In this document: piece by piece, positions 6,029 through 21,195 of the stretch
How the letters are laid out: each line of letters begins with the position of its first letter
How positions within the stretch are numbered: position 1 is the first letter of the stretch
Virus record (IMG/VR): IMGVR_UViG_3300031951_000060
Coordinates: 1-64,000 of that record
DNA: 64,000 bases
Source of the DNA: a virus
Strand: one strand, 5' to 3'
Program-made: the position numbers and the translations under genes
Notes under the pieces: model-generated
Told to the model about the DNA's origin: nothing
The model's database searches: none
The model's input: the letters and a program-made list of their open reading frames with translations, nothing else

Positions 6029-6058
6029 CTTAGTGTATAATGTATAAAAAGGAGAAAA

Positions 6059-6496
6059 ATGGCCAAATTTGCATTCGTAGTAAATAATTCAGTGAAATAT
6101 GTTCTTTCACTTACTTCAGATTCAGAAGTTAATAATAAATGGATTGCTGCCTTAAAATCTGATATTGTTTTTAAAGATGCATCGTTAAACTATGGACTTG
6201 CTCCGTTAGATTTATTTATAGATAATAAATTTTATAAAAATAATAACGGTAACTTGGTCGAAGTTGTTGAAAATGAAGACTGGCAAAACTCAGATGCCAT
6301 TAGAATTGCAGGAATTATAGATGGAGAGGTGATTGGCATGAGAATAATAAATAAAGATGCCTTTTCAGAAGAAGATTTGCAAAGAATTGTAGATGCTTTC
6401 TTGTCAAATTCATCTATCATTGAGATAAGTGAAGATTCTCAGGTATCCATAGGATGGAACTGGGATGGCGACAATTTTTCAGAACCGAGCAATTAA
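6059..6496 (+). CDS. Small fibre-associated/assembly-type protein (two-repeat architecture)
   Basis: C-terminal IGWNWDGDNFSEP motif common in proteins downstream of phage fibres; AAGGAG SD. Confidence 0.5.
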   Translation: MAKFAFVVNNSVKYVLSLTSDSEVNNKWIAALKSDIVFKDASLNYGLAPLDLFIDNKFYKNNNGNLVEVVENEDWQNSDAIRIAGIIDGEVIGMRIINKDAFSEEDLQRIVDAFLSNSSIIEISEDSQVSIGWNWDGDNFSEPSN

Positions 6497-6735
6497 TGTC
6501 TGAAGAATTATCAGCATGGCAAAAATATAAACAAAATTTAGGAGAAACCAGGCCATGGGATTTGGTAAATCCTAATAGTGAATGGGTTTCAGAAGAAGTG
6601 TCTTCTTCACGTTATGAAATATGCAAGGCATGCCCAGAATTGATAAAATTAACCAAACAGTGTAAAAAGTGTGGATGCTTCATGTATGCAAAAACTAGAT
6701 TAGAAAAAGCAACTTGTCCGATAGGAAAATGGTAA
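6496..6735 (+). CDS. Small Cys-rich metal-binding protein (DUF6171-like)
   Basis: RYEICKACP...QCKKCGCFM.AK.....ATCPIGKW; start reassigned to ATG 6496, overlapping the upstream stop. Confidence 0.6.
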   Translation: MSEELSAWQKYKQNLGETRPWDLVNPNSEWVSEEVSSSRYEICKACPELIKLTKQCKKCGCFMYAKTRLEKATCPIGKW

Positions 6736-7331
6736 TGAATAAAATCGAAATTGCTCCAGGAATAATGATTTACAAAGATGTAATAGATGGATACGAGTCT
6801 ATCATTACTGATATAGAGGATGCTGTATTATTAAAGTCAGCATCATGGTCCCCTGCAGGAGTAAAAAGTGGAGAGCAGAATGGGGTAGATACAACCAAAA
6901 GAGATACTCTAACTATAGGTATTCCATATTCTGCAACGCCACAAGAAGATTTATCTAGTCCCTCTAAGGCGTTTTACTCTATTCTGGGCGGTATATTCTT
7001 TAATGCTTTTGATCCAGTAGAAAAAGATTATGCAAGAACTTATATGATTGATCTCCCATGGCATGACACATATGGAATACTAAAATATGGTGTGGGGCAA
7101 AAATTTGTAAACCATATAGACGATCATACAGATTATCACAGAAGAGTGTCTTTTGTATATTATTTAAATGATAACTATACTGGAGGAGAAATTAATTTCC
7201 CAAGATTTGATATATCGTACAAACCAAAAGCAAATGAAATGTTAGTTTTTCCATCAACATATGTATATAATCATTCTGTATCAGAGGTCACAGAGGGAGA
7301 ACGCTACGCCGTTGTAAGTTGGTTAAGATAG
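6729..7331 (+). CDS. 2OG-Fe(II) oxygenase, prolyl 4-hydroxylase-like
   Basis: LKYGVGQKFVNHIDD (HxD), YLNDNYTGGEINF, distal His in HSVSEV, and ERYAVVSW 2OG-binding motif. Confidence 0.85.
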   Translation: MVMNKIEIAPGIMIYKDVIDGYESIITDIEDAVLLKSASWSPAGVKSGEQNGVDTTKRDTLTIGIPYSATPQEDLSSPSKAFYSILGGIFFNAFDPVEKDYARTYMIDLPWHDTYGILKYGVGQKFVNHIDDHTDYHRRVSFVYYLNDNYTGGEINFPRFDISYKPKANEMLVFPSTYVYNHSVSEVTEGERYAVVSWLR

Positions 7332-7349
7332 TGTGGTATTATTTATAAT

Positions 7350-8276
7350 ATGTCTACTATATTTATAAGTATTCCTTGCTATCAAGATCCAGAAATATGG
7401 GAAACAGTTTCAAGTTTTTATAATAATGCTACTAATCCAGAAAATGTTTATTTTGGAATTACTAATCAGACAGATTCTCCAGAATTACACAAGGAAATGC
7501 TTTTAAAATTCCCAAATGTACAAATGCATATCTTGGAGCCTGGATCTTTGCCAGGGTGCCAGCCAGCAAGATTAAAGTCCCATGAGTTTTATGATGGGCA
7601 GGACTACTATTTAAACATGGACTCTCACATGAGAGCAGTTAAAGATTGGGATTCTAGGCTAATAGCAGAATTAAATGAAACAAATTTTATATACGGACCT
7701 TCAGTGCTAACTGGATACGTTGCAGGATATGACAAAGATGAATACGGAAAAGATATAATTCCTGAAGTTACATATACTACAGTTTTTAGAATGAATGAAA
7801 AAAATATAAATCATTTTATAAATCATGGCATTCCTCAGTTTATTTCCTTTCCTCATGAAACCAACAAGCCAATACCATCTCCGTACATCTCTGGTCATTT
7901 TTTCTTTACTACTGGTCAAGCAGTTTTAGATTCACCTTTTGTTGAAGATGTATTTTTTACAGAAGAAGAAATTTTTATGGCTGTTAGATTTTTCACTGCT
8001 GGATATAACTTATTTCAACCGACTACAACATATGTGTATCATAGATATGGAAGAAACAATCGTAGACTTTTTTGGGAAGACTTTCCTGAACATTGGTATG
8101 AAAATGATAAAAGGTCAAGAGATTTTGTAAATAATGTTTTACAAAACAATATAATTGATCCTAAAAAGGGATTATTTAATAAAAGAACTTTAGACGAGTT
8201 TGAGGAATATTCTGGAATTAATTTTAGAAAAAGAGCGTTATCAGATTCGGTAATTAAGGGTACATCGTATTTATAA
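7350..8276 (+). CDS. GT60/Gnt1-like polypeptide (hydroxyproline/Thr) N-acetylglucosaminyltransferase
   Basis: TIFISIPCYQDPE...ATNPENVYFGI N-terminus, MDSHMR..KDWD motif, F..EE...AVRFFTAGY: hallmark motifs of the Skp1 GlcNAc-transferase family. Confidence 0.8.
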   Translation: MSTIFISIPCYQDPEIWETVSSFYNNATNPENVYFGITNQTDSPELHKEMLLKFPNVQMHILEPGSLPGCQPARLKSHEFYDGQDYYLNMDSHMRAVKDWDSRLIAELNETNFIYGPSVLTGYVAGYDKDEYGKDIIPEVTYTTVFRMNEKNINHFINHGIPQFISFPHETNKPIPSPYISGHFFFTTGQAVLDSPFVEDVFFTEEEIFMAVRFFTAGYNLFQPTTTYVYHRYGRNNRRLFWEDFPEHWYENDKRSRDFVNNVLQNNIIDPKKGLFNKRTLDEFEEYSGINFRKRALSDSVIKGTSYL

Positions 8277-10654: not shown

Positions 10655-12277
10655 ATGGCAACAGTCGTAAAAGACTTTAAGGTAAAGAATGGTCTGATTG
10701 TTGAAGGCGAAACAGGTACCATCAACAACCATGATATTCTTACAAAGAAAACAGATGACCAAAACTATATTATTGGTCTTATTGGCGGTTCTTCAGATTC
10801 CGCTAACACCCCAAATACAGTTGTAAAACGTGATGGCTCAGGCAATTTTGCTGCAGGTACAATTACAGCAAATCTTACAGGCGATGTAACTGGTAATGCA
10901 GATACAGCAACCACACTTGAGACTGCTCGTACAATTTCTTTGGCTGGAGATGTAACAGGTTCTGTATCATTTGATGGTTCACAGAATGTAAGCATTACAG
11001 CAACAATTGATGGATCTTTTGCAACAGATGCAGAAGTTGCTACTGCTAAAGGCGAAGCAATTTCAGATGCAGCATCAGATGCAACTACAAAGGCAAACGC
11101 TGCTAAGTCTGGCGCAGAAGCAACAGCAGCAGCAGCACTCGCTTCTGCAGTTTCTGATTTAGAAGATTATGCAGATCAGGCAGAGGCTGATGCTAAGGCA
11201 TATACCGATACTCGTGAGACTGCTATTACAGCAGCATATCAATCATATGCAGATACAGCAGAAGCAGACGCAAAGTCTTATGCTGATCAAAAGGTTGCAG
11301 ATCTTGTAGATTCTGCACCAGCACTTCTTGATACACTCAATGAATTGGCTGCAGCAATTGGCGATGACGCTAACTTTGCAGCAAACCTTGCTACATCAGT
11401 AGGAGAAAAGGTTGCAAAGGCTGGAGACACCATGACTGGCGCTCTTGTTCTTCATGCAGACCCAGTAAACAATCTTGAAGCAGCAACTAAGGCTTATGTT
11501 GATGCAGCAGAGGCAGATGCTAATGCATATGCAGATCAGGCTGAAGTTGACGCAAAAGCATATACAGACACTCGTGAGACAGCAATTACAACTGCTTATC
11601 AGTCTTATGCTGATACAGCAGAAGCAGATGCTAAGACATATGCAGATGGACTTGCTTCAACAATAAATGGAACTATTGCAGCACTTGATACAGACGATGT
11701 AGCAGAAGGTTCAAACCAGTACTTCACAGATGCTCGTGCTAAGGATTCAGCAGCAGCACTTCTTACAACTGCTACATTAGAAAACATCACAATTACTGGT
11801 ACAGGTAATGGTGGTCTTGTAATTACCGCAGAAAATGGTGTTGCAGACTCTACAACTGATGATCTTGCAGAAGGCGTAAACCGTCTTTACTTCACAGATG
11901 CTCGTGCAGTATCTGCTCTTGAAGCAGTTACTCCAGACTTCCCTGCAGTAGAGATTGCTTCTGTAGCAAAGCAGGTAGCAGCACAGGCAACTGTCGCAAC
12001 TGCAAGCACAAATACAGCAGTTTCATGGGCTAAGGCAGATTATCGTTCTGCTGAATTTCTTGTGAAGATTGCCAATGGATCTCACACAGAGGTTTCAAAG
12101 GTTATCCTAACACTTGACACTTCAGACAACGTAGCAGTTACAGAATATGCAATGGTTGGAACAAACGGTTCTCTTGGATCAGTTTCAGCAGACGTTTCTG
12201 GCAGCGATGTTCGTCTTCGTGTTACAACCGATAATAACAACTCAACAGTTGCAGTTATGGGTACGCTTTTAAAGTAA
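10655..12277 (+). CDS. Tail fibre/appendage protein with Ala-rich coiled-coil repeats
   Basis: VVKRDGSGNFAAG, LETARTISLAGDVTGSVSFDGS and APALLDTLNELAAAIGDD fibre motifs; internal duplication YADQAE.DAKAYTDTRETAIT.AYQSYADTAEADAK. Confidence 0.75.
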   Translation: MATVVKDFKVKNGLIVEGETGTINNHDILTKKTDDQNYIIGLIGGSSDSANTPNTVVKRDGSGNFAAGTITANLTGDVTGNADTATTLETARTISLAGDVTGSVSFDGSQNVSITATIDGSFATDAEVATAKGEAISDAASDATTKANAAKSGAEATAAAALASAVSDLEDYADQAEADAKAYTDTRETAITAAYQSYADTAEADAKSYADQKVADLVDSAPALLDTLNELAAAIGDDANFAANLATSVGEKVAKAGDTMTGALVLHADPVNNLEAATKAYVDAAEADANAYADQAEVDAKAYTDTRETAITTAYQSYADTAEADAKTYADGLASTINGTIAALDTDDVAEGSNQYFTDARAKDSAAALLTTATLENITITGTGNGGLVITAENGVADSTTDDLAEGVNRLYFTDARAVSALEAVTPDFPAVEIASVAKQVAAQATVATASTNTAVSWAKADYRSAEFLVKIANGSHTEVSKVILTLDTSDNVAVTEYAMVGTNGSLGSVSADVSGSDVRLRVTTDNNNSTVAVMGTLLK

Positions 12278-12307
12278 TAAAATAAATAAAAAGAGGGAGT
12301 GGTAATC

Positions 12308-12763
12308 TTGGCAACAGTCAACAAGGACTTCAAGGTTAAAAATGGACTTATCGTCACTGGTGGCGGTTCGTTCGGAGGAGCGGTAGTTGTAGGAACTCCT
12401 ACAGATTCTACCCACGCTACTACTAAAGCATACGTAGATTCAGTAGTAGGCGGAATGCAAGTCGGGGCTACCGCTCCCTCTTCACCAGACAATGGTGATT
12501 TATGGTTTGATACATTAACAGAAAGAGTTAATGTATATTATGGTGGCTCATGGCTTACCATAGCAACAATTGATGATACCCTCAATCTGCCAGAACATAT
12601 TCATGATGAGGCAATTGATGGCACAGGATTTATTGTTACTAAATTCGTCGATGGCGGTAGTTTCAATGATCCACAAGGAACTCCTGTAGACGCAGGAACT
12701 CCAACAACGTCATCTTGGGCATTAGTCTATAATGGCGGTATAGCAACAGATAACTTCAACTAA
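12308..12763 (+). CDS. Short fibre/appendage protein
   Basis: TTG start after GAGGGAG gives MATVNKDFKVKNGLIV, nearly identical to the N-terminus of ORF 10655; HATTKAYVD and APSSPDNGDLWFDT motifs. Confidence 0.6.
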   Translation: MATVNKDFKVKNGLIVTGGGSFGGAVVVGTPTDSTHATTKAYVDSVVGGMQVGATAPSSPDNGDLWFDTLTERVNVYYGGSWLTIATIDDTLNLPEHIHDEAIDGTGFIVTKFVDGGSFNDPQGTPVDAGTPTTSSWALVYNGGIATDNFN

Positions 12764-12820: not shown

Positions 12821-14482
12821 ATGGCAACAAGAATGCAACAGCGTAGAGGAACCGCTCAACAGTGGACTGACGCAAACCCTATTTTAGCAGCAGGAGAAAT
12901 CGGATTTGAGACTGACACAGGCAAGTTCAAGATGGGTAATGGTTCGTCTGCTTGGTCTGCCCTCTCCTACTTTACTGACTCATCAGACTTTGATACAACA
13001 AGTATCAATAATACAATTAACTCAACAGTAAGTGCAGCAATTGCAGGAGTAGTTGCAGCAGCACCAGGTGCTTTAGATACACTTAATGAGTTAGCAGCAG
13101 CAATTGGAGATGATCCAGACTTTGTGTCTACAATTACAGATGCAATTAGTTATAAGGCTCCATCTGCAAATCCAACATTTACAGGAACAGTTGCTCTTCC
13201 AGCAGCAACCAGCGTAACTATGAATGGCGTAAGTATTGAAACATATGTTTCTAATGAAATTGATCCAGTAGAATCACAAGTTAGCAATATTGCTTCTCAA
13301 GTTACCACAAACGAAGGAACACTAAATACTCTTTCTGGTACAGTTTCAAATATTGCAACTCAGGTAAATAATAACGAGTCTACTTTAAACTCTTTATCTG
13401 CATCAGTTGATACTTTATCTGACCAGGTTGATACAAATGAAACATCACTAAATTCATTGTCGGGTACAGTAAGTAACTTGTCTTCATTAGTTAATACAAA
13501 TGATGGAACCTTAACTCAGGCAGTTACAAATATCTCAACATTATTTGCCACAACCTCAGATCTAGAGGATGCAGATACAGCAATGGCAGCAGATATTTTA
13601 ACAAATGCTACAAATATTTCAAACATAGATTCAAACGTATCTACATTAACTGGAAATCTTAGTGCTTTAGATACACGTGTTGATGTTACAGAATCAGATA
13701 TTTCCGATTTAGAAACATCAACTTCTGCACACTCTTCTGCCACAATAAATGTGCATGGAATTGCAGATACTTCAGCACTTGCTACAAAATCTTATGTTGA
13801 TAGCGCAATTGGAAATACTGAAAATTATGCTGATACCGCACTTGCCCTTAAGGCAAATTTAGCGTCACCAGCACTAACTGGAACTCCAACTGCACCAACA
13901 GCGACAGTGGGCACTGATACAACTCAAATTGCTACAACAGCATTCGTACAAGATGCGATTGAGGCAGTTGTAGGTGCAGCCCCAGCAGCACTAAATACGC
14001 TGAGTGAATTAGCAGACGCTCTTGCTGATGATGCTAATTATGCGTCAACAGTTACATCTTCGTTAGCGCTTAAGGCACCACTTGCCTCTCCAACATTTAC
14101 AGGAACAGTTGCTCTTCCAGCAGCATCATCTGTAACGCTTGGCGGAACTGCACTATCAACAACACTAGCAGATAAGGCAGATAAGGCTGCAACTATTAAT
14201 ACAATGAATGGTTCTCATACTGCAGTTGCTGCAGATCTTGGAAATCTTCGTGAAATGAGCGGTGGCGGAACATTTACGATTCCATCAGACAACTCTTTCT
14301 GGCCAGTCGGCGGTACAGTAGATGTTCTTCAAACAGGATCATCTCAGGTAACTATTGTTGGCGCATCAGGTGTAACAGTTAATGCTACACCAGGTCTAAA
14401 ACTTCGTACTCAGTGGTCTTCTGCAACAGTGTTGAAGAGATCAGCAAATACGTTCGTGGTCATGGGCGACCTATCAGCCTAA
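12821..14482 (+). CDS. Tail fibre protein: Mtd_N-like N-terminus, heptad coiled-coil shaft, C-terminal ...GDL domain
   Basis: MQQRRGTAQQW..ANPILAAGEIGFETDTGKFKMGNG (major tropism determinant N-terminal motif); LDTLNELAAAIGDD; SPALTGTPTAPTA. Confidence 0.8.
   Translation: MATRMQQRRGTAQQWTDANPILAAGEIGFETDTGKFKMGNGSSAWSALSYFTDSSDFDTTSINNTINSTVSAAIAGVVAAAPGALDTLNELAAAIGDDPDFVSTITDAISYKAPSANPTFTGTVALPAATSVTMNGVSIETYVSNEIDPVESQVSNIASQVTTNEGTLNTLSGTVSNIATQVNNNESTLNSLSASVDTLSDQVDTNETSLNSLSGTVSNLSSLVNTNDGTLTQAVTNISTLFATTSDLEDADTAMAADILTNATNISNIDSNVSTLTGNLSALDTRVDVTESDISDLETSTSAHSSATINVHGIADTSALATKSYVDSAIGNTENYADTALALKANLASPALTGTPTAPTATVGTDTTQIATTAFVQDAIEAVVGAAPAALNTLSELADALADDANYASTVTSSLALKAPLASPTFTGTVALPAASSVTLGGTALSTTLADKADKAATINTMNGSHTAVAADLGNLREMSGGGTFTIPSDNSFWPVGGTVDVLQTGSSQVTIVGASGVTVNATPGLKLRTQWSSATVLKRSANTFVVMGDLSA
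13171..14125 (+). repeat. 37-bp exact direct repeat (13171-13207 and 14089-14125)
   Basis: tccaacatttacaggaacagttgctcttccagcagca occurs twice, 918 nt apart and in frame. Confidence 0.85.
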
Positions 14483-14510: not shown

Positions 14511-15545
14511 ATGGCATTACAAAGAAGCAGAGGTAGAACAGTAAGAAAGTCTCAGGTACCAACCTTTTCAACTTCTTTTACTAGATCTCAATATCAGTCT
14601 ACCCTTAGTTCATTAGGATTGTCTTATTCGGAGTCGTCATTTAATACAAGTGATAACGGATTAGACCAAAAATGGCAAGCACAAAATATTACCCCAGGAA
14701 CAGTTGTTCCATTTGGAACTACTATTGGTATTACATATTATATGTATGTATATCCTGGTTTCAGCCATTACGGCGGATTTGGTCACTATGGTGGCTTTGG
14801 TCACTATGGTGGCTTTGGTCACTACAGTAACTTTGGTCACTACAGTAACTTTGGTCACTACAGTAACTTCAGCCATTACGGCGGATTTGGTCACTACAGT
14901 AACTTCGGCCATTATAGTAACTTCAGCCATTATAGTAACTTCAGCCATTACGGTGGTTTTGGTCACTATAATAGTTTTAGTCATTATGGGTCCTTTAGTC
15001 ATGGATATGGTGGCTTTGCCCACTACGGAGGATTCTACGGCGGATTTAGCCATCATGGTGGTCTAGGCTGGTACTCTATTGGAGCACAAACTGGTATTTT
15101 GACACCAACTGGATCAATTACTGCAGAAAATGTTAAGGTTGGAGATAAACTATTAGCATTAAATGTTGACGAGATTGATTTATCAACCTTTAATCCAAAT
15201 GATTGGACGTCTGAAACCTTTACATCTCCATCAGTTGTAGAAACAGAGGTTGTCTCTGTGGTAAAACATGTTAAAGATACTGCTGTAAGAATTAATGGTG
15301 ATGTATTTTCACAAAGCCATAAAATCCTAACAAGAAAAGACGGAATAGTGCAGTTTGTATTATCAAGTCTAATCGACGGATCTTTTGAGGTTTGGAGTTA
15401 TACTGAACAAAATTGGGTTCCTGTAACAGAATTTGAAACAATATCTTATATTGATAAGGTATATTCTATCAACTGTGAGCCATACGACATGTTCTTTACT
15501 AACAACATGTTGGTTTACGATAGCGATTCAAACATACCATCCTAG
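14511..15545 (+). CDS. PASTA-like domain + (xxF[G/S]HY)n hexapeptide repeat + C-terminal Hint-like domain protein
   Basis: VP......QSTLSSLGL...AQNITPGTVVPFGTTI (PASTA-like); about 15 GGFGHY/SNFGHY/SNFSHY units; SIGAQTGILTPTG...ENVKVGDKL...SQSHKIL...VYSINCEPYDMFFTNNMLVYD (Hint blocks A, B, F, G). Confidence 0.75.
   Translation: MALQRSRGRTVRKSQVPTFSTSFTRSQYQSTLSSLGLSYSESSFNTSDNGLDQKWQAQNITPGTVVPFGTTIGITYYMYVYPGFSHYGGFGHYGGFGHYGGFGHYSNFGHYSNFGHYSNFSHYGGFGHYSNFGHYSNFSHYSNFSHYGGFGHYNSFSHYGSFSHGYGGFAHYGGFYGGFSHHGGLGWYSIGAQTGILTPTGSITAENVKVGDKLLALNVDEIDLSTFNPNDWTSETFTSPSVVETEVVSVVKHVKDTAVRINGDVFSQSHKILTRKDGIVQFVLSSLIDGSFEVWSYTEQNWVPVTEFETISYIDKVYSINCEPYDMFFTNNMLVYDSDSNIPS
14754..15056 (+). repeat. 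18-nt coding tandem repeat (about 15-16 degenerate units)
   Basis: ggtggctttggtcactat / agtaactttggtcactac / agtaacttcagccattat variants in tandem. Confidence 0.9.
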
Positions 15546-15559
15546 TAGAAAGCGGTATC

Positions 15560-16303
15560 ATGGGAAGACTTCCTAATGATGAGTATTATCCAAAAGAATG
15601 GAAAGAAAATCAGCCATACGTTCATAAACACGAAGACATATCACTAAATTCTGATCGTGTAACTAAGGGAGATATGGCAACACCATTTTCCATCAGTCCA
15701 CAAATATCTGACTTTACGAGAAAGTTTGGCGAAGAGTTAGCAGAAATGCCTACTGCAGAAGAGATGGCTCAATGGCATTTTCCCTGGGATAAAGAATACA
15801 GAGAGGGAACATCCTTTTTTGTACCAGAAAATAGATATACTCATGAAGCAATATTTCCTCCACAATTAGTTAAAGATAATATTTATAAAATATTACTTTC
15901 TCCAGATATATATGTAAAGATAATTTCTTCTGAATTAATTTTAAATAGTAAAAAACACATAACAAACGAGTATAAATTTATTAGTAGAACTCTTTATACT
16001 CATCTAGAGCCTACAGATAAAATAATTGAAGATGAGTCTATGTGGGAAACTTGGTGCCCTAGAGTGTATCAATGGAATATTAGGTGGCTACCAAAAGACA
16101 ATGCAAGATTAACATTTTTTGTGGATAAAGATATTGAAGATATGCTATACTGTAATGTAGAGGAATACTCTATAGATACAAAAGATATTGACGGAGGATG
16201 TGTGGCAGTCCCAGTTACTTTTAGGAGGGGTTTAAAGAAAAAAATGGCATATATGAAACATGATACCCCTTATTTATACTTAAAGGTTGACACCTATGAA
16301 TAA
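15560..16303 (+). CDS. Hypothetical protein, probable divergent paralog of the next two genes
   Basis: PKEWKENQPY, ISPQISDF, YQWNIRWLPK and HDTPYLYL align loosely with PLWWRKQEPY, KCPGILDL, FVWDMRWGTK and AGTPIMSI. Confidence 0.5.
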   Translation: MGRLPNDEYYPKEWKENQPYVHKHEDISLNSDRVTKGDMATPFSISPQISDFTRKFGEELAEMPTAEEMAQWHFPWDKEYREGTSFFVPENRYTHEAIFPPQLVKDNIYKILLSPDIYVKIISSELILNSKKHITNEYKFISRTLYTHLEPTDKIIEDESMWETWCPRVYQWNIRWLPKDNARLTFFVDKDIEDMLYCNVEEYSIDTKDIDGGCVAVPVTFRRGLKKKMAYMKHDTPYLYLKVDTYE

Positions 16304-17009
16304 AAAAAATATTATAAACTTTATTCCAAAAGATGAATACACTATTGAGTATGCATCAAAGCCAGAGCCAATGTCTAAAAACTTCCCTCTATGGTGGAGA
16401 AAACAAGAACCATATGTTGGTGGAGAAAAAAGAGTGGTAAATGGGCAATATAATGAAACTGTAAAAAAGTGTCCAGGAATATTAGATTTACTAGTTACTG
16501 GTTATCTTCTTAAGACCCCATGTGATATTTATGTGGATACCACTGAAGATAAATTACAATTTCAGGTTCATGATGCACACAAAGAATGCGTAACTATTCA
16601 TACTAGAGAACAAGTTGGCAATTGGGATTTTGATAGATCTGTCTGGTCAGATGATATTTTTAGAATACATCCTATGTGGGTTGTAACTACTCAAAAGGGC
16701 TATAGTACTTTATTTATTCATCCATCATTTCACAATGACCTACCATTTGATATTGTTCCAGCAATTATAGATACAGACATGTATCCATCAGATGGGCCAT
16801 TTTCTATGAGATTTAAAAAGGGTTTTAAGGGTGTAATAGAGGCTGGAACTCCACTCGTTCAATGTATCCCATACAAAAGAGAGCATTTTGAAGCCAACAT
16901 ATTGGAAAAGCCTGATTTAAAAATTTTAAAATCTTTACAACAAAAATTAAGACACAAGTTTGGCGGATCTTATAAAAAATTAATGTGGGAAAAGAAGGTG
17001 TTTAATTAA
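16296..17009 (+). CDS. Uncharacterised DUF6065-like (dUTPase-fold-like) protein
   Basis: P.WW....KKCPGILD....GY.L.TP.D...W....KGYSTLFIHP...IIDTD...GTPLVQCIPYKR. Confidence 0.55.
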   Translation: MNKKNIINFIPKDEYTIEYASKPEPMSKNFPLWWRKQEPYVGGEKRVVNGQYNETVKKCPGILDLLVTGYLLKTPCDIYVDTTEDKLQFQVHDAHKECVTIHTREQVGNWDFDRSVWSDDIFRIHPMWVVTTQKGYSTLFIHPSFHNDLPFDIVPAIIDTDMYPSDGPFSMRFKKGFKGVIEAGTPLVQCIPYKREHFEANILEKPDLKILKSLQQKLRHKFGGSYKKLMWEKKVFN

Positions 17010-17770
17010 TGGATAAATTTGAAGAAAAGTATAAAAATCCAGAACCACTAGAGGACAACGTGGTAAAGTTTTTTACCTCTAGTGCATATATTAAAACAAC
17101 TCCAAGCCCAGTGCCAGCAATAAACAATTTGCCAAACTGGTGGAAAGATAGGCCAATCTATCAAAGAAATGATGATATTGATAGATTATCTATAGTTAAT
17201 AATCGTGGTGCGGATGCAGCATCTATTAGCGTTAAGCATTGTATGCCGTTTTTTGATGCTCTTACATGTGGATATCACTATCTTTTACCAACCACAGTGA
17301 CAGTAAAAAAGACAGATGACCCAGATACTCCAGACATATCCTGGGACCCAACAAAAGCACGTCCTATAGAGATGCGTGGACATATAGAACTTCCAGTCCC
17401 AGCAAATTGTTATCCAATTCACTTTGTTTGGGATATGAGATGGGGAACAAAAATGCCAGATGGTTGGTCAGCAATGATCACTCATCCAATTGATAGGTAT
17501 GATCTTCCGTTTTTTACAATGACGGCAATTCAAGATTCAGACAGATGGTTTACTGGAAATGTTGTGACATTCTTTTTAAGAAAAGATTTTGAGGGTGAAA
17601 TTCCAGCAGGAACTCCAATAATGTCCATTATTCCAATTAAAAGAGCAAATTGGACGATGGAAGTTGACCACTCCCTTATGCACGAGGGTCTGTGGGATTT
17701 AGAGAGAAAAAGAAATTATTTATATGGATTCTATAAAAAGCATAGATGGATTAGAAAAAAATATCGATAG
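17009..17770 (+). CDS. Uncharacterised DUF6065-like protein, paralog of the upstream gene
   Basis: PNWWK...VKHCMPFFDALTCGY...PDGWSAMITHP..RYDLPF....IQDSD...GTPIMSIIPIKR. Confidence 0.55.
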   Translation: MDKFEEKYKNPEPLEDNVVKFFTSSAYIKTTPSPVPAINNLPNWWKDRPIYQRNDDIDRLSIVNNRGADAASISVKHCMPFFDALTCGYHYLLPTTVTVKKTDDPDTPDISWDPTKARPIEMRGHIELPVPANCYPIHFVWDMRWGTKMPDGWSAMITHPIDRYDLPFFTMTAIQDSDRWFTGNVVTFFLRKDFEGEIPAGTPIMSIIPIKRANWTMEVDHSLMHEGLWDLERKRNYLYGFYKKHRWIRKKYR

Positions 17771-17778
17771 GAGATAAA

Positions 17779-18438
17779 ATGAACAACTACGAATATGGCG
17801 ATTCACATCAGCCAAGTGTTAGCAGGTCCAAAAAAGAGCATTTGTTCTTTGAAAGACAAATAGATATTAATGATACAGATCACCTAGCAAAATTAATGCT
17901 TGATCTAAATGAAAGAATATCTAGGGGAGAAGTGATCAAGGGAGATAGAAATCAGCACACCCCATGGGATAACTCTGGTAGTCAGCCAACAATTAATTGG
18001 AATAAATATAATGTATTTCAAGTATATGACAAAAACATACATACCCTTTTTAGGGCAGTTAGAGACATGACAGTTGAAGCATGTAAGCATTATGAGTTAG
18101 ACTTTACTAAAGAGCAGTTTATGGTTCAAGGTTGGTTTAATGTCAACTACAACCATATTGGAAAACTAGATTGGCATGAGCATGGTGGTGAAGGTGCGCC
18201 ACATTTTCATGGCTACTACTGCGTTAAGGCAGAGCCATCAATAACCTATTATCGTGTTTTTGAAAAAGAAATAGAAAATCATAATAAAAATAATCGTGCC
18301 ATATTGTCAGAGACAGGACACCCACATGCCATGGGTGACTGGGATTGGGAAGGTCCAAGAATTACTATAGCCTATGATGTAATTCCATTAAGACTTATTC
18401 CTATGGAGTGGGAGCAGCACTGGATTCCTTTGGTGTAA
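17779..18438 (+). CDS. Putative 2OG-Fe(II) oxygenase (HxH-type)
   Basis: WFNVN...WHEH...FHGYYCV...HPHAM...RITIAYD double-stranded beta-helix motifs. Confidence 0.7.
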   Translation: MNNYEYGDSHQPSVSRSKKEHLFFERQIDINDTDHLAKLMLDLNERISRGEVIKGDRNQHTPWDNSGSQPTINWNKYNVFQVYDKNIHTLFRAVRDMTVEACKHYELDFTKEQFMVQGWFNVNYNHIGKLDWHEHGGEGAPHFHGYYCVKAEPSITYYRVFEKEIENHNKNNRAILSETGHPHAMGDWDWEGPRITIAYDVIPLRLIPMEWEQHWIPLV

Positions 18439-18439
18439 A

Positions 18440-18787
18440 ATGTTATACACTGCTTCTGCCTTGTTTTTATTATTTTTAATATCTATGGTATTTTATAAAT
18501 ATACTATAGATACAAAGATAACAATTACAGAATTAAGAAAAGATCGTGATATATATAGAAATAAGTTATGGGTTTTAATTAAAAGAGGAGATAAACTAAA
18601 AGAAGAGTTTATAGTCGCTAACTCTTCAAATACTCTATATAAAAATCTAAAACAAAAAATTTCTTTGTTACGAAATGATCTTGCGGAAACAGATTTTGAG
18701 AATTATGAAAATATTAAAGATGAAATACTCAAGGCATTAAAAGATATAGATTCATATGGAGAGGGCAATGATAAAAGTAAAAATTAA
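18440..18787 (+). CDS. Membrane-anchored coiled-coil hypothetical protein
   Basis: N-terminal hydrophobic helix followed by a charged helical region. Confidence 0.5.
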   Translation: MLYTASALFLLFLISMVFYKYTIDTKITITELRKDRDIYRNKLWVLIKRGDKLKEEFIVANSSNTLYKNLKQKISLLRNDLAETDFENYENIKDEILKALKDIDSYGEGNDKSKN

Positions 18788-18965
18788 TTATGACTGTCAG
18801 GCCTGGGGGCAATGTGTATTTGATGCTCCAGAAGTTTTTGATTTAGTTGATAGCGAACGAAAAACATGGAATTATAATGTTGAGGATAATTTGCTAGATA
18901 AAATTTCACTTGCAGTTAGCCATTGTCCAAATAGGGCTATATCTTTTGAGGTCGTAGATGATTAA
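18768..18965 (+). CDS. Single-cluster [3Fe-4S]-type ferredoxin
   Basis: CQAWGQC...APEVF...CPNRAIS; the CxxXxxC...CP pattern of actinobacterial-type ferredoxins; start set at ATG 18768. Confidence 0.8.
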   Translation: MIKVKINYDCQAWGQCVFDAPEVFDLVDSERKTWNYNVEDNLLDKISLAVSHCPNRAISFEVVDD

Positions 18966-19092
18966 GAAATTAATTTGCATATTATACGGACATAAAATTG
19001 AAGAGTCATCATGTCCATATACACTTAAGACATATCAAACGTGTCTCCGTTGTGGCTTACAAGGCATAAAAGAAAACCATAACCCTCAATAA
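18958..19092 (+). CDS. Small Zn-finger-like protein (44 aa), absent from the ORF track
   Basis: MIKKLICILYGHKIEESSCPYTLKTYQTCLRCGLQGIKENHNPQ; GAGGT SD; start overlaps the end of the ferredoxin gene. Confidence 0.6.
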   Translation: MIKKLICILYGHKIEESSCPYTLKTYQTCLRCGLQGIKENHNPQ

Positions 19093-19164: not shown

Positions 19165-21195
19165 GTGTCAGATTTTTTTAGTTTTCGTTTGTCAGAAGAT
19201 TTCGTAAATGAGTATAAAGCAAAGGAATCTCCTTTTGGATTTATAGATGCAGGTGGTAACTCATTAGGAGAGATTACGTTTATCCGTACCTACTCCCGTA
19301 TGAAGGATGATGGGACTAAGGAAAGATGGTACGAGGTTTGTCGTCGAGTAATCGAGGGCATGTATTCAGCACAAAAGAATCACGCTAAAGAAAACAGACT
19401 CCCCTGGAATGATTATAAGGCTCAGGCATCTGCTAAAGAGGCGTTTGACCGTATGTTTAATTTAAAGTGGACTCCGCCAGGAAGAGGCATGTGGGCTTTT
19501 GGAACACCTCTAACTATGGAAAAGAGAAACTCGGCAGCACTTCAAAATTGTGCCATGGTTTCTACAAAAGATATTGACCGTAATGACCCAGGGGCATTGT
19601 TTGCATGGGTGATGGACGCATTGATGATGGGTGTTGGTGTAGGGTTTGATACAGTAGGTGCAGAAAAACAACTTCCCATTTATACACCTACAGAACCAGC
19701 ACAAATATATGAAATTCCAGATACCCGTGAGGGATGGGTAGAATCTGTAAGACTTTTGTTAAATTCTTTTTTAAGGCCAAACCACTTTATTCAAGAGTTT
19801 AACTATGACCTTATTCGCCCCCTAGGAGCGCCCATTAAAGGCTTTGGAGGCACAGCAAGCGGTCCTGCACCACTTATTCAGTTACACAAGCAGATCAGGG
19901 CTGTAATCGGCGGTAGGGCTGGAGAGACCCTTGACTCAAGAGCAATAGTAGATATTGTTAATCTTATTGGTACCTGTGTGGTATCAGGAAATGTTAGACG
20001 ATCTGCAACCCTGGCTTTGGGTAATGCTCAAGATGAAGACTTTATGAATCTTAAGAATTCTGAGGTTTTTCCAGATAGAAACTCATTTGATCCAGAAAAC
20101 CCAGGTTGGGCGTGGATGTCGAATAACTCAATTTCTGCGACGGTAGGTACAAAGTACGAAGACTATGTAGACCTAATCGCAAGCAATGGAGAGCCAGGAT
20201 TCATTTGGCTTGATGTTGCCAGAAACTACGGCAGACTTAAGGATCCTGCGGATGGCAAGGATTATCGTGTAATGGGATTCAATCCTTGTGCAGAGCAGCC
20301 ATTGGAATCATACGAACTATGCACCTTGGTCGAGGTACATCTAAATCGTCATGAATCCAAGGAAGACTTCCTCCGCACCCTTAAGTTTGCTTATCTCTAT
20401 GGCAAGACGGTAACGCTGATACCAACACACTGGCAACAGACAAACGGTATCATGCAACGTAATCGTCGTATTGGAACATCACTTACGGGTATTGCTTCAT
20501 TCTCAGACAAATTTGGTTTGCCTGTTGTGCGTGAATGGATGGACGAAGGATATGAGACTATCCGTAAATATGATCACTCATATTCTGAATGGCTATGCGT
20601 TCGTGATTCCATTAGAGTCACAACTGTTAAACCATCGGGGTCTGTATCAATTCTTTCTGGCGCAACTCCTGGAGTTCACTGGGCGCCTGGAGGAAACTAT
20701 TTCTTGAGAGCAATTAGATTTGGGAATACTGACCCAATGATTCACTTGTTCAAGGCTGCTGGATATAAAATGGAGCCTGACCTTGTATCTGCGAATACAA
20801 CTGTCGTATATTTCCCAGTACATTCTGGCCACGCAAGATCTGAAAAGGATGTAACATTATTTGAGAAGATTGCGCTTGCTGCTACTGCTCAGAAATATTG
20901 GTCTGATAACGGCGTGTCTGTAACGCTTTCATTTGACAAAGAAACTGAAACCAAGCATATTGCGCCTGCTCTTCATATGTACGAAGGACAACTAAAGGCC
21001 GTGTCATTCCTGCCAATGGGAAATACGGTGTATCCTCAACAGCCATATACCGAAATTACTGAAGAAGAATATAATAGTTATATTGGTCAGATTAAAAAGA
21101 TCGACTGGTCTGCTATTTATGACGGAATAGAAAATCTAGAGGCTCAGGGTGAAATGTACTGCACCACAGATGCTTGCGAAATTAAAATCTCGTAG
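19165..21195 (+). CDS. nrdJ: Class II (adenosylcobalamin-dependent) ribonucleotide reductase, monomeric RTPR type
   Basis: PPGRG, NPCAEQ catalytic loop, TTVKPSG, C-terminal CTTDAC redox pair; no beta-subunit gene nearby. Confidence 0.9.
   Translation: MSDFFSFRLSEDFVNEYKAKESPFGFIDAGGNSLGEITFIRTYSRMKDDGTKERWYEVCRRVIEGMYSAQKNHAKENRLPWNDYKAQASAKEAFDRMFNLKWTPPGRGMWAFGTPLTMEKRNSAALQNCAMVSTKDIDRNDPGALFAWVMDALMMGVGVGFDTVGAEKQLPIYTPTEPAQIYEIPDTREGWVESVRLLLNSFLRPNHFIQEFNYDLIRPLGAPIKGFGGTASGPAPLIQLHKQIRAVIGGRAGETLDSRAIVDIVNLIGTCVVSGNVRRSATLALGNAQDEDFMNLKNSEVFPDRNSFDPENPGWAWMSNNSISATVGTKYEDYVDLIASNGEPGFIWLDVARNYGRLKDPADGKDYRVMGFNPCAEQPLESYELCTLVEVHLNRHESKEDFLRTLKFAYLYGKTVTLIPTHWQQTNGIMQRNRRIGTSLTGIASFSDKFGLPVVREWMDEGYETIRKYDHSYSEWLCVRDSIRVTTVKPSGSVSILSGATPGVHWAPGGNYFLRAIRFGNTDPMIHLFKAAGYKMEPDLVSANTTVVYFPVHSGHARSEKDVTLFEKIALAATAQKYWSDNGVSVTLSFDKETETKHIAPALHMYEGQLKAVSFLPMGNTVYPQQPYTEITEEEYNSYIGQIKKIDWSAIYDGIENLEAQGEMYCTTDACEIKIS

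What the first reader, a model, noticed from the sequence alone, without database searches (positions are those of the whole stretch)
14511..19092. Candidate new system: self-cleaving (xxF[G/S]HY)n repeat protein with a cluster of putative tailoring enzymes
Seen: ORF 14511 has a PASTA-like domain, about 15 tandem hexapeptides (GGFGHY, SNFGHY, SNFSHY) and a Hint-like domain. It is followed, tightly packed, by three related unknown proteins, an HxH 2OG-Fe(II) oxygenase, a membrane protein, a ferredoxin and a tiny Zn-finger ORF. F, H and Y stay almost fixed while codons vary synonymously, so selection acts on the peptide. Known: multi-core repeat precursors next to oxidative enzymes is the layout of RiPP clusters; 2OG oxygenases hydroxylate His/Asn/aromatic residues; PASTA domains bind peptidoglycan. 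Inference: a phage-encoded RiPP-like or virion-decoration pathway in which the repeat is hydroxylated or cross-linked, released or ligated by the Hint domain, and targeted to the host wall. Alternatively, the Gly/His/aromatic repeat is a metal-binding or self-assembling (amyloid/coacervate-like) adhesive.
Basis: partly seen in the sequence, partly recalled or inferred. Interest (0 to 1): 0.9.

Follow-up and report, generated by a model that had tools for sequence, protein, structure and literature searches.

The report
Phage fibre-side protein with self-cutting Hint cap
A lake-type phage encodes, right after a tail-fibre gene, a protein made of a cell-wall-binding PASTA domain, a floppy Gly/Phe/His/Tyr repeat and a genuine intein-like (Hint) domain that most likely cuts itself off; the "tailoring enzymes" next door are only partly that, since two of them fold like dUTPases.

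Summary
ORF 14511-15545 has a PASTA fold (Z about 10), 14 clean xxF[G/S]HY hexapeptides predicted disordered, and a C-terminal Hint fold (Z 17-18 to BIL domains, Hedgehog and inteins). Ser189 aligns with the nucleophile and His270 with block B. There is no C-extein, so cleavage or transfer is possible but not splicing.

At least 221 IMG/VR relatives keep the Hint domain while the front modules (PASTA or FN3) and the repeat chemistry change. The gene nearly always follows a fibre gene ending in a conserved "GDL" domain.

The "tailoring cluster" reading is only partly supported:
- o3 and o4 are paralogs near DUF6065 with a dUTPase/dCTP-deaminase fold (Z about 10).
- o2 is not demonstrably related to them.
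- o5 is a divergent PF13759 2OG-Fe(II) oxygenase (hhalign 96%).
- The ferredoxin, the Zn-ribbon protein and the membrane protein are as described.
- A class II RNR follows.

In sister clades with Pro-rich repeats the Hint gene is followed by P4H-type oxygenases, so repeat hydroxylation stays a live rival. Nothing here is RiPP-like. Other agents of this scan reported the same repeat-plus-Hint theme on other phage DNA. I found no paper describing it.

The parts
12821..14482 (+). Tail-fibre protein (553 aa). Its last ~95 aa (nt 14186-14479) form the conserved 'GDL' fibre-end domain that precedes the Hint gene in almost all relatives.
   Evidence: PHROG tail-fibre families and Mtd_N. 42 of 49 distinct GDL-domain copies in the related loci are followed directly by the Hint gene. 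About 40 of 46 unique Hint ORFs have such an upstream gene, with a gap of -31 to +44 nt.
14511..14759 (+). N-terminal part of the repeat-Hint protein: a short basic leader and a PASTA-fold domain (residues ~11-82).
   Evidence: AF2 pLDDT about 90. VIA Z 9.9-10.2 to PrkC and PknB PASTA domains. Relatives pass Pfam PASTA. The window protein itself is sub-threshold.
14754..15074 (+). Low-complexity repeat, residues 82-188: 14 clean xxF[G/S]HY hexapeptides, then degenerate units. Composition G30 F17 H17 Y17 S15 N7 of 107 residues, with no acidic, Lys or Arg residues. Predicted disordered.
   Evidence: pLDDT below 40 across residues 84-185.
15075..15521 (+). Hint domain, Ser189 to Asp337, followed by a 7-residue tail. 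The predicted acyl-shift and cleavage site is Tyr188|Ser189 (nt 15074/15075).
   Evidence: Foldseek E 1.8e-8 to BIL2, TMt 0.81 to 2lwy. VIA Z 18.2 (6tmm), 17.1 (2lwy), 17.0 (Hedgehog 1at0, model residue 189 aligned to Cys258). S189, T194, H270 and C322-E-P-x-D-x-F-F-T are invariant in 31-48 relatives.
15560..16303 (+). o2: conserved 247-aa protein of unknown family, found only in the His-repeat clade.
   Evidence: No Pfam, PHROG or PDB match. Not related to o3/o4 by hhalign. Present in 15 unique close loci.
16287..17009 (+). o3: DUF6065-related protein with a dUTPase/dCTP-deaminase-like fold. The likely true start is the ATG at 16296.
   Evidence: AF2 pLDDT 94. VIA Z 10.2 down to 5.7, with the top 22 hits all from the dUTPase/dCD superfamily. 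Foldseek gives the same families. phrog_7084 E 3.9e-42. Homologs carry PF19541. Atlas start.
17009..17770 (+). o4: paralog of o3.
   Evidence: 26% identity, E 6e-17. phrog_7084 E 6.9e-26.
17779..18438 (+). o5: divergent PF13759-type putative 2OG-Fe(II) oxygenase, with WHEH...GHPH...RITIAYD motifs.
   Evidence: 30 of 93 remote relatives hit PF13759. hhalign to cyanophage PF13759 proteins gives probability 96%, E 3.4e-9 over 167 columns. Atlas feature neighbours agree. No direct Pfam hit.
18440..18787 (+). o6: small protein with an N-terminal hydrophobic helix and a coiled-coil-like rest.
   Evidence: Sequence read directly. Only sub-threshold Pfam hits.
18756..18965 (+). Single-cluster ferredoxin (CxxxxxC...CP pattern).
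   Evidence: Fer4_13 25.7 bits and Fer4_15 25.2 bits, both above their cut-offs.
18958..19092 (+). 44-aa Zn-ribbon protein, DUF1660.
   Evidence: PF07874 24.9 bits against a cut-off of 21.4. phrog_2670.
19165..21195 (+). Class II (B12-dependent) ribonucleotide reductase. It closes the block and is about 85% conserved across the related loci.
   Evidence: PF17975 E 1.8e-30, PF21995 E 9e-15, phrog_367 E 9e-145. Synteny.

Best explanation
ORF 14511 encodes a tail-fibre-associated accessory or adhesin protein of a phage that probably infects low-GC freshwater Actinobacteria.

Shown by computation:
- A PASTA domain.
- A ~105-residue disordered, uncharged Gly/Phe/His/Tyr repeat.
- A C-terminal Hint domain with Ser at position 1, an [S/T]xxH block B and no C-extein.
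- A gene position immediately behind a fibre gene that ends in the conserved GDL domain.

Inferred mechanism:
1. After folding, the Hint domain converts the Tyr188-Ser189 peptide bond into an ester (N-to-O acyl shift).
2. The ester is then resolved, most simply by water.
3. The 17-kDa Hint cap leaves, and a 21-kDa PASTA-plus-sticky-tail fragment becomes the mature product at or near the fibre end.
4. PASTA there would contact peptidoglycan.

The Hint domain would thus act like the self-removing C-terminal chaperone domains of other phage fibres.

The downstream block is a mixed accessory block that is co-inherited with the Hint gene: o2, two dUTPase-fold DUF6065-like paralogs, a PF13759 oxygenase, a membrane protein, a ferredoxin, a Zn ribbon and a class II RNR. 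o3 and o4 are more likely nucleotide-pool enzymes working with the RNR than peptide-tailoring enzymes. Only o5 is a credible modifier of the repeat.
For: - Folds: Hint Z 17-18 and PASTA Z about 10.
- Register: model residue 189 aligns with intein residue 1 and with Hedgehog Cys258; residue 337 aligns with the last intein residue.
- Conservation: invariant S189 and H270, block F/G pattern, variable +1 residue and a tail of only 3-8 residues.
- The repeat is disordered.
- 221 IMG/VR relatives keep the Hint domain but swap PASTA for FN3 or other extracellular modules, and swap repeat chemistry among GF[YG]H, FFPP, GAF, SPFGVFGF, PVIIAEP and NPPPY.
- The GDL-ending fibre gene lies directly upstream in most clades, including both copies on the one contig that carries two (L028 and L068).
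- PHROG 38766, annotated 'virion structural protein', matches the Hint domain, and a collagen-like fibre of this window matches another part of the same profile. BFVD holds Hint-ended collagen, FN3 and PASTA phage proteins.
- o3 has a dUTPase fold.
- No canonical dUTPase or dCTP deaminase was found in this genome or in three complete relatives.
- The RNR is class II. A halovirus homolog of o3 also sits beside a class II RNR.
Against: - No chemistry, expression or virion data exist. Autoprocessing is inferred from residues only.
- Block F position 4 is Ser/Thr rather than the usual Asp. Block B position 7 is Val in one clade.
- There is no signal peptide and no shown contact with the fibre.
- Hint distances track o3 (r 0.78, partial 0.57) better than they track the GDL domain (r 0.55, partial 0.24). 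This argues for a tie to the downstream genes at least as strong as to the fibre.
- dUTPase motifs II and V are not seen in o3/o4, and no sequence method links them to dUTPases.
- The halovirus has a canonical dUTPase-family gene as well.
- True DUF6065 and o3-like genes sit between P4H-type oxygenases in the FFPP clade.
Confidence: 0.5

Rival explanations
1. Fibre-tailoring cassette. Before or after Hint cleavage, the repeat is chemically modified by the downstream genes. The PF13759 oxygenase o5 would hydroxylate or cross-link Asn, His, Tyr or Phe side chains. o2, the DUF6065-like pair and the ferredoxin would be accessory factors.
For: - Genes from 14511 to 19092 are on one strand with gaps of 14 nt or less, or overlaps, and no convincing terminator lies between them.
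- The order o2-o3-o4-o5-o6-fdx-Zn is kept in all 15 unique loci of the His-repeat clade.
- In FFPP/PPPF clades the Hint gene is followed at once by PF13640 (P4H-type) oxygenases interleaved with true DUF6065.
- PF13640 lies within 4.2 kb in six clades, all with Pro in the repeat, and in neither Pro-free clade.
- This genome's only PF13640 gene sits beside its (PT)n fibre, ORF 4292.
- Hint-o3 distance correlation.
- Other agents' notes describe the same pairing elsewhere (unchecked).
Against: - The o3/o4 fold is dUTPase-like, not that of a known protein-modifying enzyme.
- The o5 family occurs with F/T/P/G, S/P/F/G/V and N/P repeats and is missing from other clades, so it does not track repeat chemistry.
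- Distant o5 relatives lack the His motifs.
- The by-clade association of PF13640 with Pro is weak (about p 0.18 by my count), and three Pro-containing clades lack it.
- DUF6065-like and PF13759 genes occur in cyanophages and haloviruses without any Hint protein and are not adjacent to each other there.
Confidence: 0.2
2. Hint-driven ligation rather than simple cleavage. The ester at Tyr188 is attacked by an amine or hydroxyl of a partner: a Lys of the GDL fibre-end domain, peptidoglycan or a lipid. The PASTA-repeat fragment becomes covalently tethered, as BIL2 of Tetrahymena BUBL conjugates a ubiquitin-like domain through an isopeptide bond.
For: - The best structural match is BUBL BIL2 (Z 18.2). 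Its isopeptide chemistry is described in PMC8616854, section 2.4.
- The GDL-gene to Hint-gene pairing is constant.
- The GDL domain keeps a Lys-Arg pair in its last 25 residues.
- ORF 4292 has the same domain followed in cis by linkers and binding-type modules. A ligation would give the same end topology.
Against: - The match to BIL2 is no better than to ordinary inteins or Hedgehog once ties are allowed (Z 17-18).
- There is no excess co-variation between Hint and GDL.
- No interaction test could be run.
- The similarity of ORF 4292 to the GDL domain is weak (E 1e-4 to 2e-3).
Confidence: 0.15
3. The Hint domain is catalytically dead and serves as a docking or folding module. It would be retained in the mature protein, for example to bind the fibre end.
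For: Block F:4 Asp is replaced by Ser/Thr. The terminal Asn is replaced by Asp in most members. The most conserved stretch (INCEPyDxFFT) is not a classical catalytic motif.
Against: Ser1 and the block B His are invariant across 48 very divergent members, although nothing else in the junction is conserved. This is hard to explain without chemistry at that bond.
Confidence: 0.1
4. RiPP-like pathway. The hexapeptides are cores that are modified and released as small peptides.
For: Multi-copy short units next to an oxygenase and a ferredoxin.
Against: - The 'precursor' has two folded domains and sits in a fibre module.
- No protease, exporter, RRE, radical-SAM or cyclase gene was found between 14.5 and 21.2 kb.
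- Relatives replace the units with linker-like FFPP, GAF or PVIIAEP tracts.
Confidence: 0.03

Closest known systems
Bacterial intein-like (BIL) domains, e.g. Clostridium thermocellum BIL (PDB 2LWY)
   Same: Same Hint fold (Z 17.1, rmsd 1.8 over 130 residues; profile E 3e-5). N-terminal nucleophile, block B His, no homing endonuclease, placed in a non-conserved and variable protein context. Expected to give cleavage rather than obligatory splicing.
   Different: Here the domain is at the extreme C-terminus with no C-extein. It starts with Ser, not Cys, ends in [Y/F/H]-Asp, and forms a phage-only subfamily tied to tail-fibre genes and to an upstream low-complexity repeat.
BIL2 of the Tetrahymena thermophila BUBL1 locus (PDB 6TMM/6Y75)
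   Same: Top structural match (Z 18.2; Foldseek E 1.8e-8). It is a precedent for a Hint domain that transfers its N-terminal neighbour onto a lysine (PMC8616854).
   Different: BIL2 sits between two ubiquitin-like domains and uses Cys1 and a terminal Asn. No acceptor domain follows the phage Hint, and no conjugation is shown.
Hedgehog/Hog C-terminal autoprocessing domain (PDB 1AT0)
   Same: A C-terminal Hint that cleaves its own N-terminal neighbour with no splicing. Z 17.0, with Ser189 on Cys258.
   Different: No sterol-recognition region follows. The nucleophile is Ser. The cargo is a PASTA domain plus a repeat, not a signalling domain.
C-terminal intramolecular chaperone domains of phage tailspikes and fibres (Peptidase S74; from my own knowledge, not tested here)
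   Same: A self-removing C-terminal domain on a phage appendage protein, which is the role proposed here.
   Different: Unrelated fold and chemistry (Ser-Lys dyad). S74 domains assist trimerisation of the fibre itself.
Trimeric dUTPase / dCTP deaminase superfamily (for o3 and o4)
   Same: Jelly-roll core (Z 10.2 to 5.7, with the top 22 hits all from this superfamily). By eye, motif I-like GY.L..P.D, motif III-like (I/V)ID(T/S)D.Y and motif IV-like G.P..Q are conserved. The genes lie next to a class II RNR.
   Different: About 100 extra residues. Motifs II and V are not recognisable. No HMM or profile match to PF00692 or PF22769. The nearest Pfam family is DUF6065, which has no known function. 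The trimer state is unresolved.
PF13759 (2OG-FeII_Oxy_5), the 'orphan' oxygenases common in cyanophages (for o5)
   Same: Profile-profile probability 96%. HxH...H...R pattern in the same order.
   Different: No direct Pfam hit. The substrate of the whole family is unknown, so membership gives no function.
His/Gly/aromatic structural repeats such as squid-beak GHGxY proteins, and FG-repeat domains (from my own knowledge)
   Same: Uncharged, disordered Gly/aromatic(/His) short repeats that are cohesive or pH-responsive.
   Different: This is only a compositional resemblance. No homology or behaviour was tested.

Membership tests
Hint superfamily (inteins, BIL, Hedgehog/Hog) | Hint fold | tested here: met
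   AF2 pLDDT above 90 for residues 189-341. Foldseek E 1.8e-8, TMt 0.75-0.81. VIA Z 18.2, 17.1 and 17.0, rmsd 1.8-2.2 over 130-140 residues.
Hint superfamily (inteins, BIL, Hedgehog/Hog) | Cys/Ser/Thr nucleophile at position 1 and [T/S]xxH in block B | tested here: met
   S189 and H270 are invariant in 48 relatives. Residue 189 aligns to intein residue 1 and to Hedgehog Cys258. Block B position 7 is Ser/Thr in most members and Val in one clade.
Splicing inteins | Terminal Asn (or Gln/Asp) followed by a Cys/Ser/Thr +1 residue of a C-extein | tested here: not met
   The last Hint residue is Asp in most members and Asn in three clades. The +1 residue varies (S, K, R, T, I, V, Q ...). Only 3-8 residues follow. 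So this is not an intein; it is of BIL/Hog type.
Hint superfamily (inteins, BIL, Hedgehog/Hog) | Autoprocessing activity | not testable with these tools
   Needs expression, mutants and mass spectrometry.
PASTA domain (PF03793) | Pfam gathering score and PASTA fold | tested here: met
   The window protein scores only 11-14 bits against a cut-off of 23.2. However, 15 of 48 relatives pass (best E 6.8e-17), and the model matches PrkC, PknB and PBP PASTA domains at Z 7.5-10.2 over 57-69 residues.
RiPP biosynthetic cluster | Short leader/core precursor with dedicated peptide-modifying enzyme(s), protease or exporter | tested here: not met
   The precursor has two folded domains. No protease, exporter, RRE or radical-SAM gene was found in 14.5-21.2 kb. 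The neighbours are dUTPase-fold proteins, one orphan oxygenase, a ferredoxin and an RNR.
dUTPase / dCTP deaminase superfamily (o3, o4) | Fold | tested here: met
   VIA Z 10.2 (3h6x), with the top 22 hits all in the superfamily, then a drop to Z 4.5. Foldseek agrees.
dUTPase / dCTP deaminase superfamily (o3, o4) | Five conserved sequence motifs / Pfam PF00692 or PF22769 match | tested here: inconclusive
   No Pfam or PDB-profile hit. hhalign to a halovirus dCD-like protein is non-significant, but it does align the IDxD...GxxxxQ stretch. Motifs II and V are not seen.
DUF6065 (PF19541) | Pfam gathering score | tested here: inconclusive
   The window proteins give no hit. 3 of 33 relatives hit weakly. 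Two profile hits carry PF19541. A neighbouring paralog family in the FFPP clade scores 81.5 bits. Atlas feature neighbours are 12-23% DUF6065.
2OG-FeII_Oxy_5 (PF13759) (o5) | Homology to the family and metal/2OG-binding pattern | tested here: met
   No direct hit. However, 30 of 93 remote relatives hit PF13759, and hhalign gives 96%, E 3.4e-9. WHxH, a distal His and Arg are conserved.

The most novel reading that the evidence does not exclude
A phage 'appendage-finishing' system. The Hint domain does not merely fall off. It hands the PASTA-repeat fragment covalently to the GDL end of the preceding fibre, or to the host wall. The His/Tyr/Phe repeat is oxidatively modified or cross-linked by the PF13759 oxygenase, with the dUTPase-fold DUF6065 proteins as a new kind of partner. 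This would give the orphan phage oxygenases and DUF6065 a substrate.
Probability: 0.12. Interest if true: 0.85.

Novelty: new variant of a known kind. Interest (0 to 1): 0.62.

Why it matters
Hint domains are known as inteins, as BIL domains of bacterial surface proteins and as the Hedgehog processing domain. A large phage-only subfamity that caps fibre-side adhesin-like proteins would be a new use of this chemistry. Members combine PASTA or FN3 modules, a hypervariable low-complexity tail and the Hint domain, and the gene is always placed behind a fibre gene. The idea is easy to test: one protein and two point mutants.

It also bears on two common unknowns of environmental phage genomes. The first is the many orphan 2OG oxygenases. 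In this phage group they tend to sit beside repeat proteins: P4H-type next to Pro-rich repeats, and PF13759 here. The second is DUF6065, which this work places in the dUTPase/dCTP-deaminase fold.

If the repeat tail is sticky or pH-responsive, it is a natural self-processing tag of possible use in protein engineering.

Tried and rejected
- tblastn of the whole protein and of the Hint domain against 50,697 deposited phage genomes: no match. No cultured relative could therefore be named.
There is thus no read-level check of the repeat array and no expression data.
- Promoter and terminator scans gave no more sites than shuffled sequence.
- Complex prediction of an o3 homotrimer gave no verdict (median score 0.31). 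It is not used as evidence either way.
- Profile searches of o3/o4, o5 and o2 against PDB sequences gave nothing usable.
- A first hhalign of o5 against three PF13759 proteins failed (probability 2%). It succeeded once the o5 profile was deepened.
- The DUF6065 context in eight proteobacterial genomes consists of housekeeping genes only (Lon-N, thioredoxin-TPR, tRNA-edit, SDR) and is uninformative.
- A scan of GTDB genomes for the Hint subfamily found two MAG contigs only, giving no host assignment.
- A search for N-domain relatives with a different C-terminal cap found only loci already known.
- Literature searches (DUF6065; BIL + bacteriophage; Hint + PASTA + phage; Hint + tail fiber) found no description of this family.
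- The idea that the (GAF)n relatives are collagen-like was considered and dropped as a general rule. Other clades have periods of 4, 6 or 8.

Full report
**Setting**

The window is the first 64 kb of a single 100,597-bp virus record that CheckV rates 93% complete. Around the finding all genes run on the + strand:
- collagen-like and coiled-coil tail fibres at 87-962, 10655-12277, 12299-12763 and 12821-14482;
- the finding itself;
- a class II ribonucleotide reductase;
- a 1238-aa protein;
- portal, protease and major capsid protein.

Hints to the host are indirect. The RNR DNA is 71% identical to an Actinomycetia phage. Homologs of o3 and o4 are filed under an Actinobacteria MAG. PASTA domains are typical of Gram-positives (my own knowledge).

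**The observation**

ORF 14511-15545 (344 aa) contains 14 in-register hexapeptides at residues 82-165, and the pattern decays up to residue 188. F is fixed at position 3, H at position 5, and Y at position 6 in 13 of 14 units. Tandem Repeats Finder reports periods of 18 to 72 nt.

The F, H and Y codons differ synonymously in 136 unit pairs and non-synonymously in 13. So the peptide pattern is held while the DNA drifts. One stretch (14898-14950, 97% matches) is a recent duplication. The two long ORFs on other frames inside the array (14661-15056 on the minus strand, 14704-15066 on the plus strand) are by-products of the repeat.

**Folds of the protein**

An AlphaFold2 model built on 48 relatives shows two confident domains, residues 8-83 and 189-341 (pLDDT about 90 or more). 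The stretch 84-185 has pLDDT below 40.

An all-against-all structural search matches the C-terminal domain to:
- BIL2 of Tetrahymena: Z 18.2, rmsd 2.2, 140 residues;
- the Clostridium thermocellum BIL domain: Z 17.1;
- the Hedgehog processing domain: Z 17.0;
- dozens of inteins: Z 12-17.

The same search matches the N-terminal domain to PASTA domains of PrkC, PknB and PBPs (Z 7.5-10.2 over 57-69 residues) (Foldseek agrees).

In these alignments residue 189 falls on intein residue 1 and on Hedgehog Cys258. Residue 337 falls on the last intein residue. A sequence profile of the domain finds the C. thermocellum BIL at E 3e-5. Among 48 family members, 23 hit Pfam Intein_splicing, 10 hit Hint_2, 15 hit PASTA and 23 hit fn3.

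**Catalytic residues**

Across 31-48 divergent relatives the following are invariant: Ser189, Thr194, Thr245, His270 and the stretch C-E-P-x-D-x-F-F-T. The junction always reads x-Ser-[I/V/L]-x-x-x-Thr, whatever precedes it. Block B is [S/T]-x-x-His in most clades.

The last Hint residue is Asp (Asn in three clades). The next residue is variable, and only 3-8 residues follow. The domain therefore cannot splice. It has what is needed for an N-to-O acyl shift at Tyr188|Ser189, as in BIL and Hedgehog domains.

Two features are atypical. Block F position 4 is Ser/Thr, not Asp. The nucleophile is Ser.

**The family**

A pattern scan of IMG/VR found 221 relatives, of which 80 loci were fetched. The Hint domain is kept at 33-66% identity. 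Everything in front of it is modular: one PASTA domain, one to several FN3 domains, PT linkers or Cys-rich modules.

The tract just before Ser1 is always low-complexity, but its chemistry differs by clade:
- GF[Y/G/S/T]H(Y);
- FFPP and PPPF;
- (GAF)n;
- SPFGVFGF;
- FTPFG;
- NPPPY;
- NPGF;
- PVIIAEP.

Histidine (11-18%) occurs only in the clade of this window. UniProt/BFVD already hold members under automatic names such as 'PASTA_pknB domain containing protein' or 'Hint domain containing protein' from uncultured Caudovirales. GTDB genomes gave only two MAG contigs, so this looks like a phage-only family.

**Upstream partner**

In about 40 of 46 unique loci with sequence upstream, the Hint gene starts -31 to +44 nt from the end of a gene whose product ends in the same ~95-residue domain. 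That domain finishes in ...W.V.GDL plus two residues. Of 49 distinct copies of that domain in the loci, 42 are followed directly by the Hint gene. This includes both Hint genes of the one contig that carries two (L028 and L068).

In this window the domain closes fibre 12821-14482. A weak second copy (E 1e-4 to 2e-3) lies inside ORF 4292. There it is followed in the same chain by (PT)n linkers and Cys-rich modules.

This pairing is the most constant feature of the family. It places the protein in the slot where phages usually keep fibre chaperones or tip adhesins (my own knowledge).

A caution applies. Pairwise distances of the Hint domain correlate less with the GDL domain (r 0.55, partial 0.24) than with the downstream o3 family (r 0.78, partial 0.57) in 22 loci. 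So there is no special co-evolution signal with the fibre end.

**Downstream genes**

- **o3 (16287-17009) and o4 (17009-17770)** are paralogs of PHROG 7084. A model of o3 (pLDDT 94) matches trimeric dUTPases at Z 8-10 and dCTP deaminases at Z 5.7-6.8. The top 22 hits are all from that superfamily, and the next hit has Z 4.5 (Foldseek). Conserved stretches resemble dUTPase motifs I, III (IDTD.Y) and IV by eye, and in a non-significant hhalign. Motifs II and V are not seen. No HMM links them to dUTPases. The nearest Pfam family is DUF6065.
- **o2 (15560-16303)** is conserved but matches nothing. It is not detectably related to o3/o4.
- **o5 (17779-18438)** has no direct Pfam hit. After deepening its profile with the 1.8-billion-protein library, 30 of 93 remote relatives hit PF13759. 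hhalign to three cyanophage PF13759 proteins gives 96% probability over 167 columns, with the HxH, distal His and Arg motifs aligned.
- **Ferredoxin and DUF1660 Zn ribbon** pass their Pfam cut-offs.

**Are the downstream genes tailoring enzymes for the repeat?**

Against:
- o3/o4 have a nucleotide-enzyme fold.
- Neither this phage nor three complete relatives have a canonical dUTPase.
- A class II RNR closes the block.
- The halovirus homolog of o3 also sits beside a class II RNR.
- DUF6065-like and PF13759 genes occur in haloviruses and cyanophages that lack the Hint protein and are not adjacent there.

For: prompted by earlier notes of this scan on other phages, I clustered the genes after the Hint gene in all loci.
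- In the FFPP and PPPF clades the Hint gene is followed at once by two PF13640 (prolyl-hydroxylase-type) oxygenases, a true DUF6065 (81.5 bits), an o3-like gene and another PF13640 gene.
- PF13640 lies within 4.2 kb in six clades, all with Pro in the repeat.
- PF13640 lies within 4.2 kb in neither Pro-free clade (this one and (GAF)n).
- Three Pro-containing clades also lack it, so the count by clade is only suggestive (about p 0.18 by my own count).
- Within this genome the single PF13640 gene (7074-7328) lies beside the (PT)n protein, while the PF13759 gene lies beside the His/Tyr repeat.
- The o5 family itself does not follow repeat chemistry.

I conclude that hydroxylation of Pro-rich tails by neighbouring P4H-type enzymes is plausible in sister clades. 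Modification of this window's repeat by o5 is possible but unsupported. The role of the DUF6065 group is open between nucleotide metabolism and an unknown accessory role.

**Most likely mechanism**

- Shown: the architecture, folds, conserved residues, gene order and family distribution.
- Inferred: the Hint domain makes an ester at Tyr188-Ser189. Water resolves it. A 21.0-kDa basic fragment (PASTA plus an uncharged His/aromatic tail, pI about 9.1) is released from a 17.4-kDa cap. The fragment acts at the fibre end, with PASTA binding peptidoglycan and the tail giving weak multivalent or pH-dependent adhesion.

The rival readings are ligation to the fibre or the wall, an inactive docking domain, oxidative tailoring of the tail, and a RiPP pathway. 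They are scored separately in this report.

**Novelty**

The Hint, PASTA, dUTPase and 2OG folds are all known. What I could not find described in any searched paper is this phage subfamily and its fixed place behind fibre genes. Other agents of this scan independently reported the same theme on other phage DNA. I treat those notes as leads only.

**Limits**

There are no reads, expression data or virion data. The o3 trimer test gave no verdict.

Noticed in passing
window 4292-8276: ORF 4292 carries a weak copy of the GDL fibre-end domain (residues ~140-207). In the same chain it is followed by long (PT)n/(PAPT)n linkers and Cys-rich modules. The genome's only PF13640 (P4H-type) oxygenase (7074-7328, 70 bits) and a glycosyltransferase (7350-8276, phrog_24687) lie just downstream. 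This looks like a second repeat-plus-enzyme cassette.
   Followed up: partly
L028 and L068 (same IMG/VR contig 3300032326_001363): One phage carries two diverged fibre(GDL) plus repeat-Hint gene pairs, one with a PPPF tract and one with FFP. Each is followed by PF13640-type genes.
   Followed up: partly
window 16287-17770; L024 11995-12705: DUF6065 (PF19541) and its phage relatives have a dUTPase/dCTP-deaminase-like fold. The family is single-copy in 17 of 301 sampled Pseudomonadota genomes, with uninformative neighbours.
   Followed up: partly
whole genome G000 and three complete relatives (G001-G003): No canonical dUTPase (PF00692) or dCTP deaminase (PF22769) was found, although these phages encode a class II RNR.
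   Followed up: partly
window 55592-57037: A 481-aa ORF matches PHROG 2928, annotated 'tryptophan halogenase' (E 5e-97). It lies between the helicase and the DNA polymerase.
   Followed up: no
window 34453-43836: A very long ORF (3127 aa) lies after the head genes. It is presumably a tape-measure-type protein.
   Followed up: no
L030, L044, L056, L071 (o5-like genes): Distant o5 relatives next to PASTA-type Hint genes have lost the WHxH and GHPH histidines, so they may be non-catalytic.
   Followed up: no
L032, L037, L048, L053, L070: In some clades a Pol-beta-type nucleotidyltransferase gene (PF18765) sits between the o3-like gene and the PF13640 gene downstream of the Hint gene.
   Followed up: no
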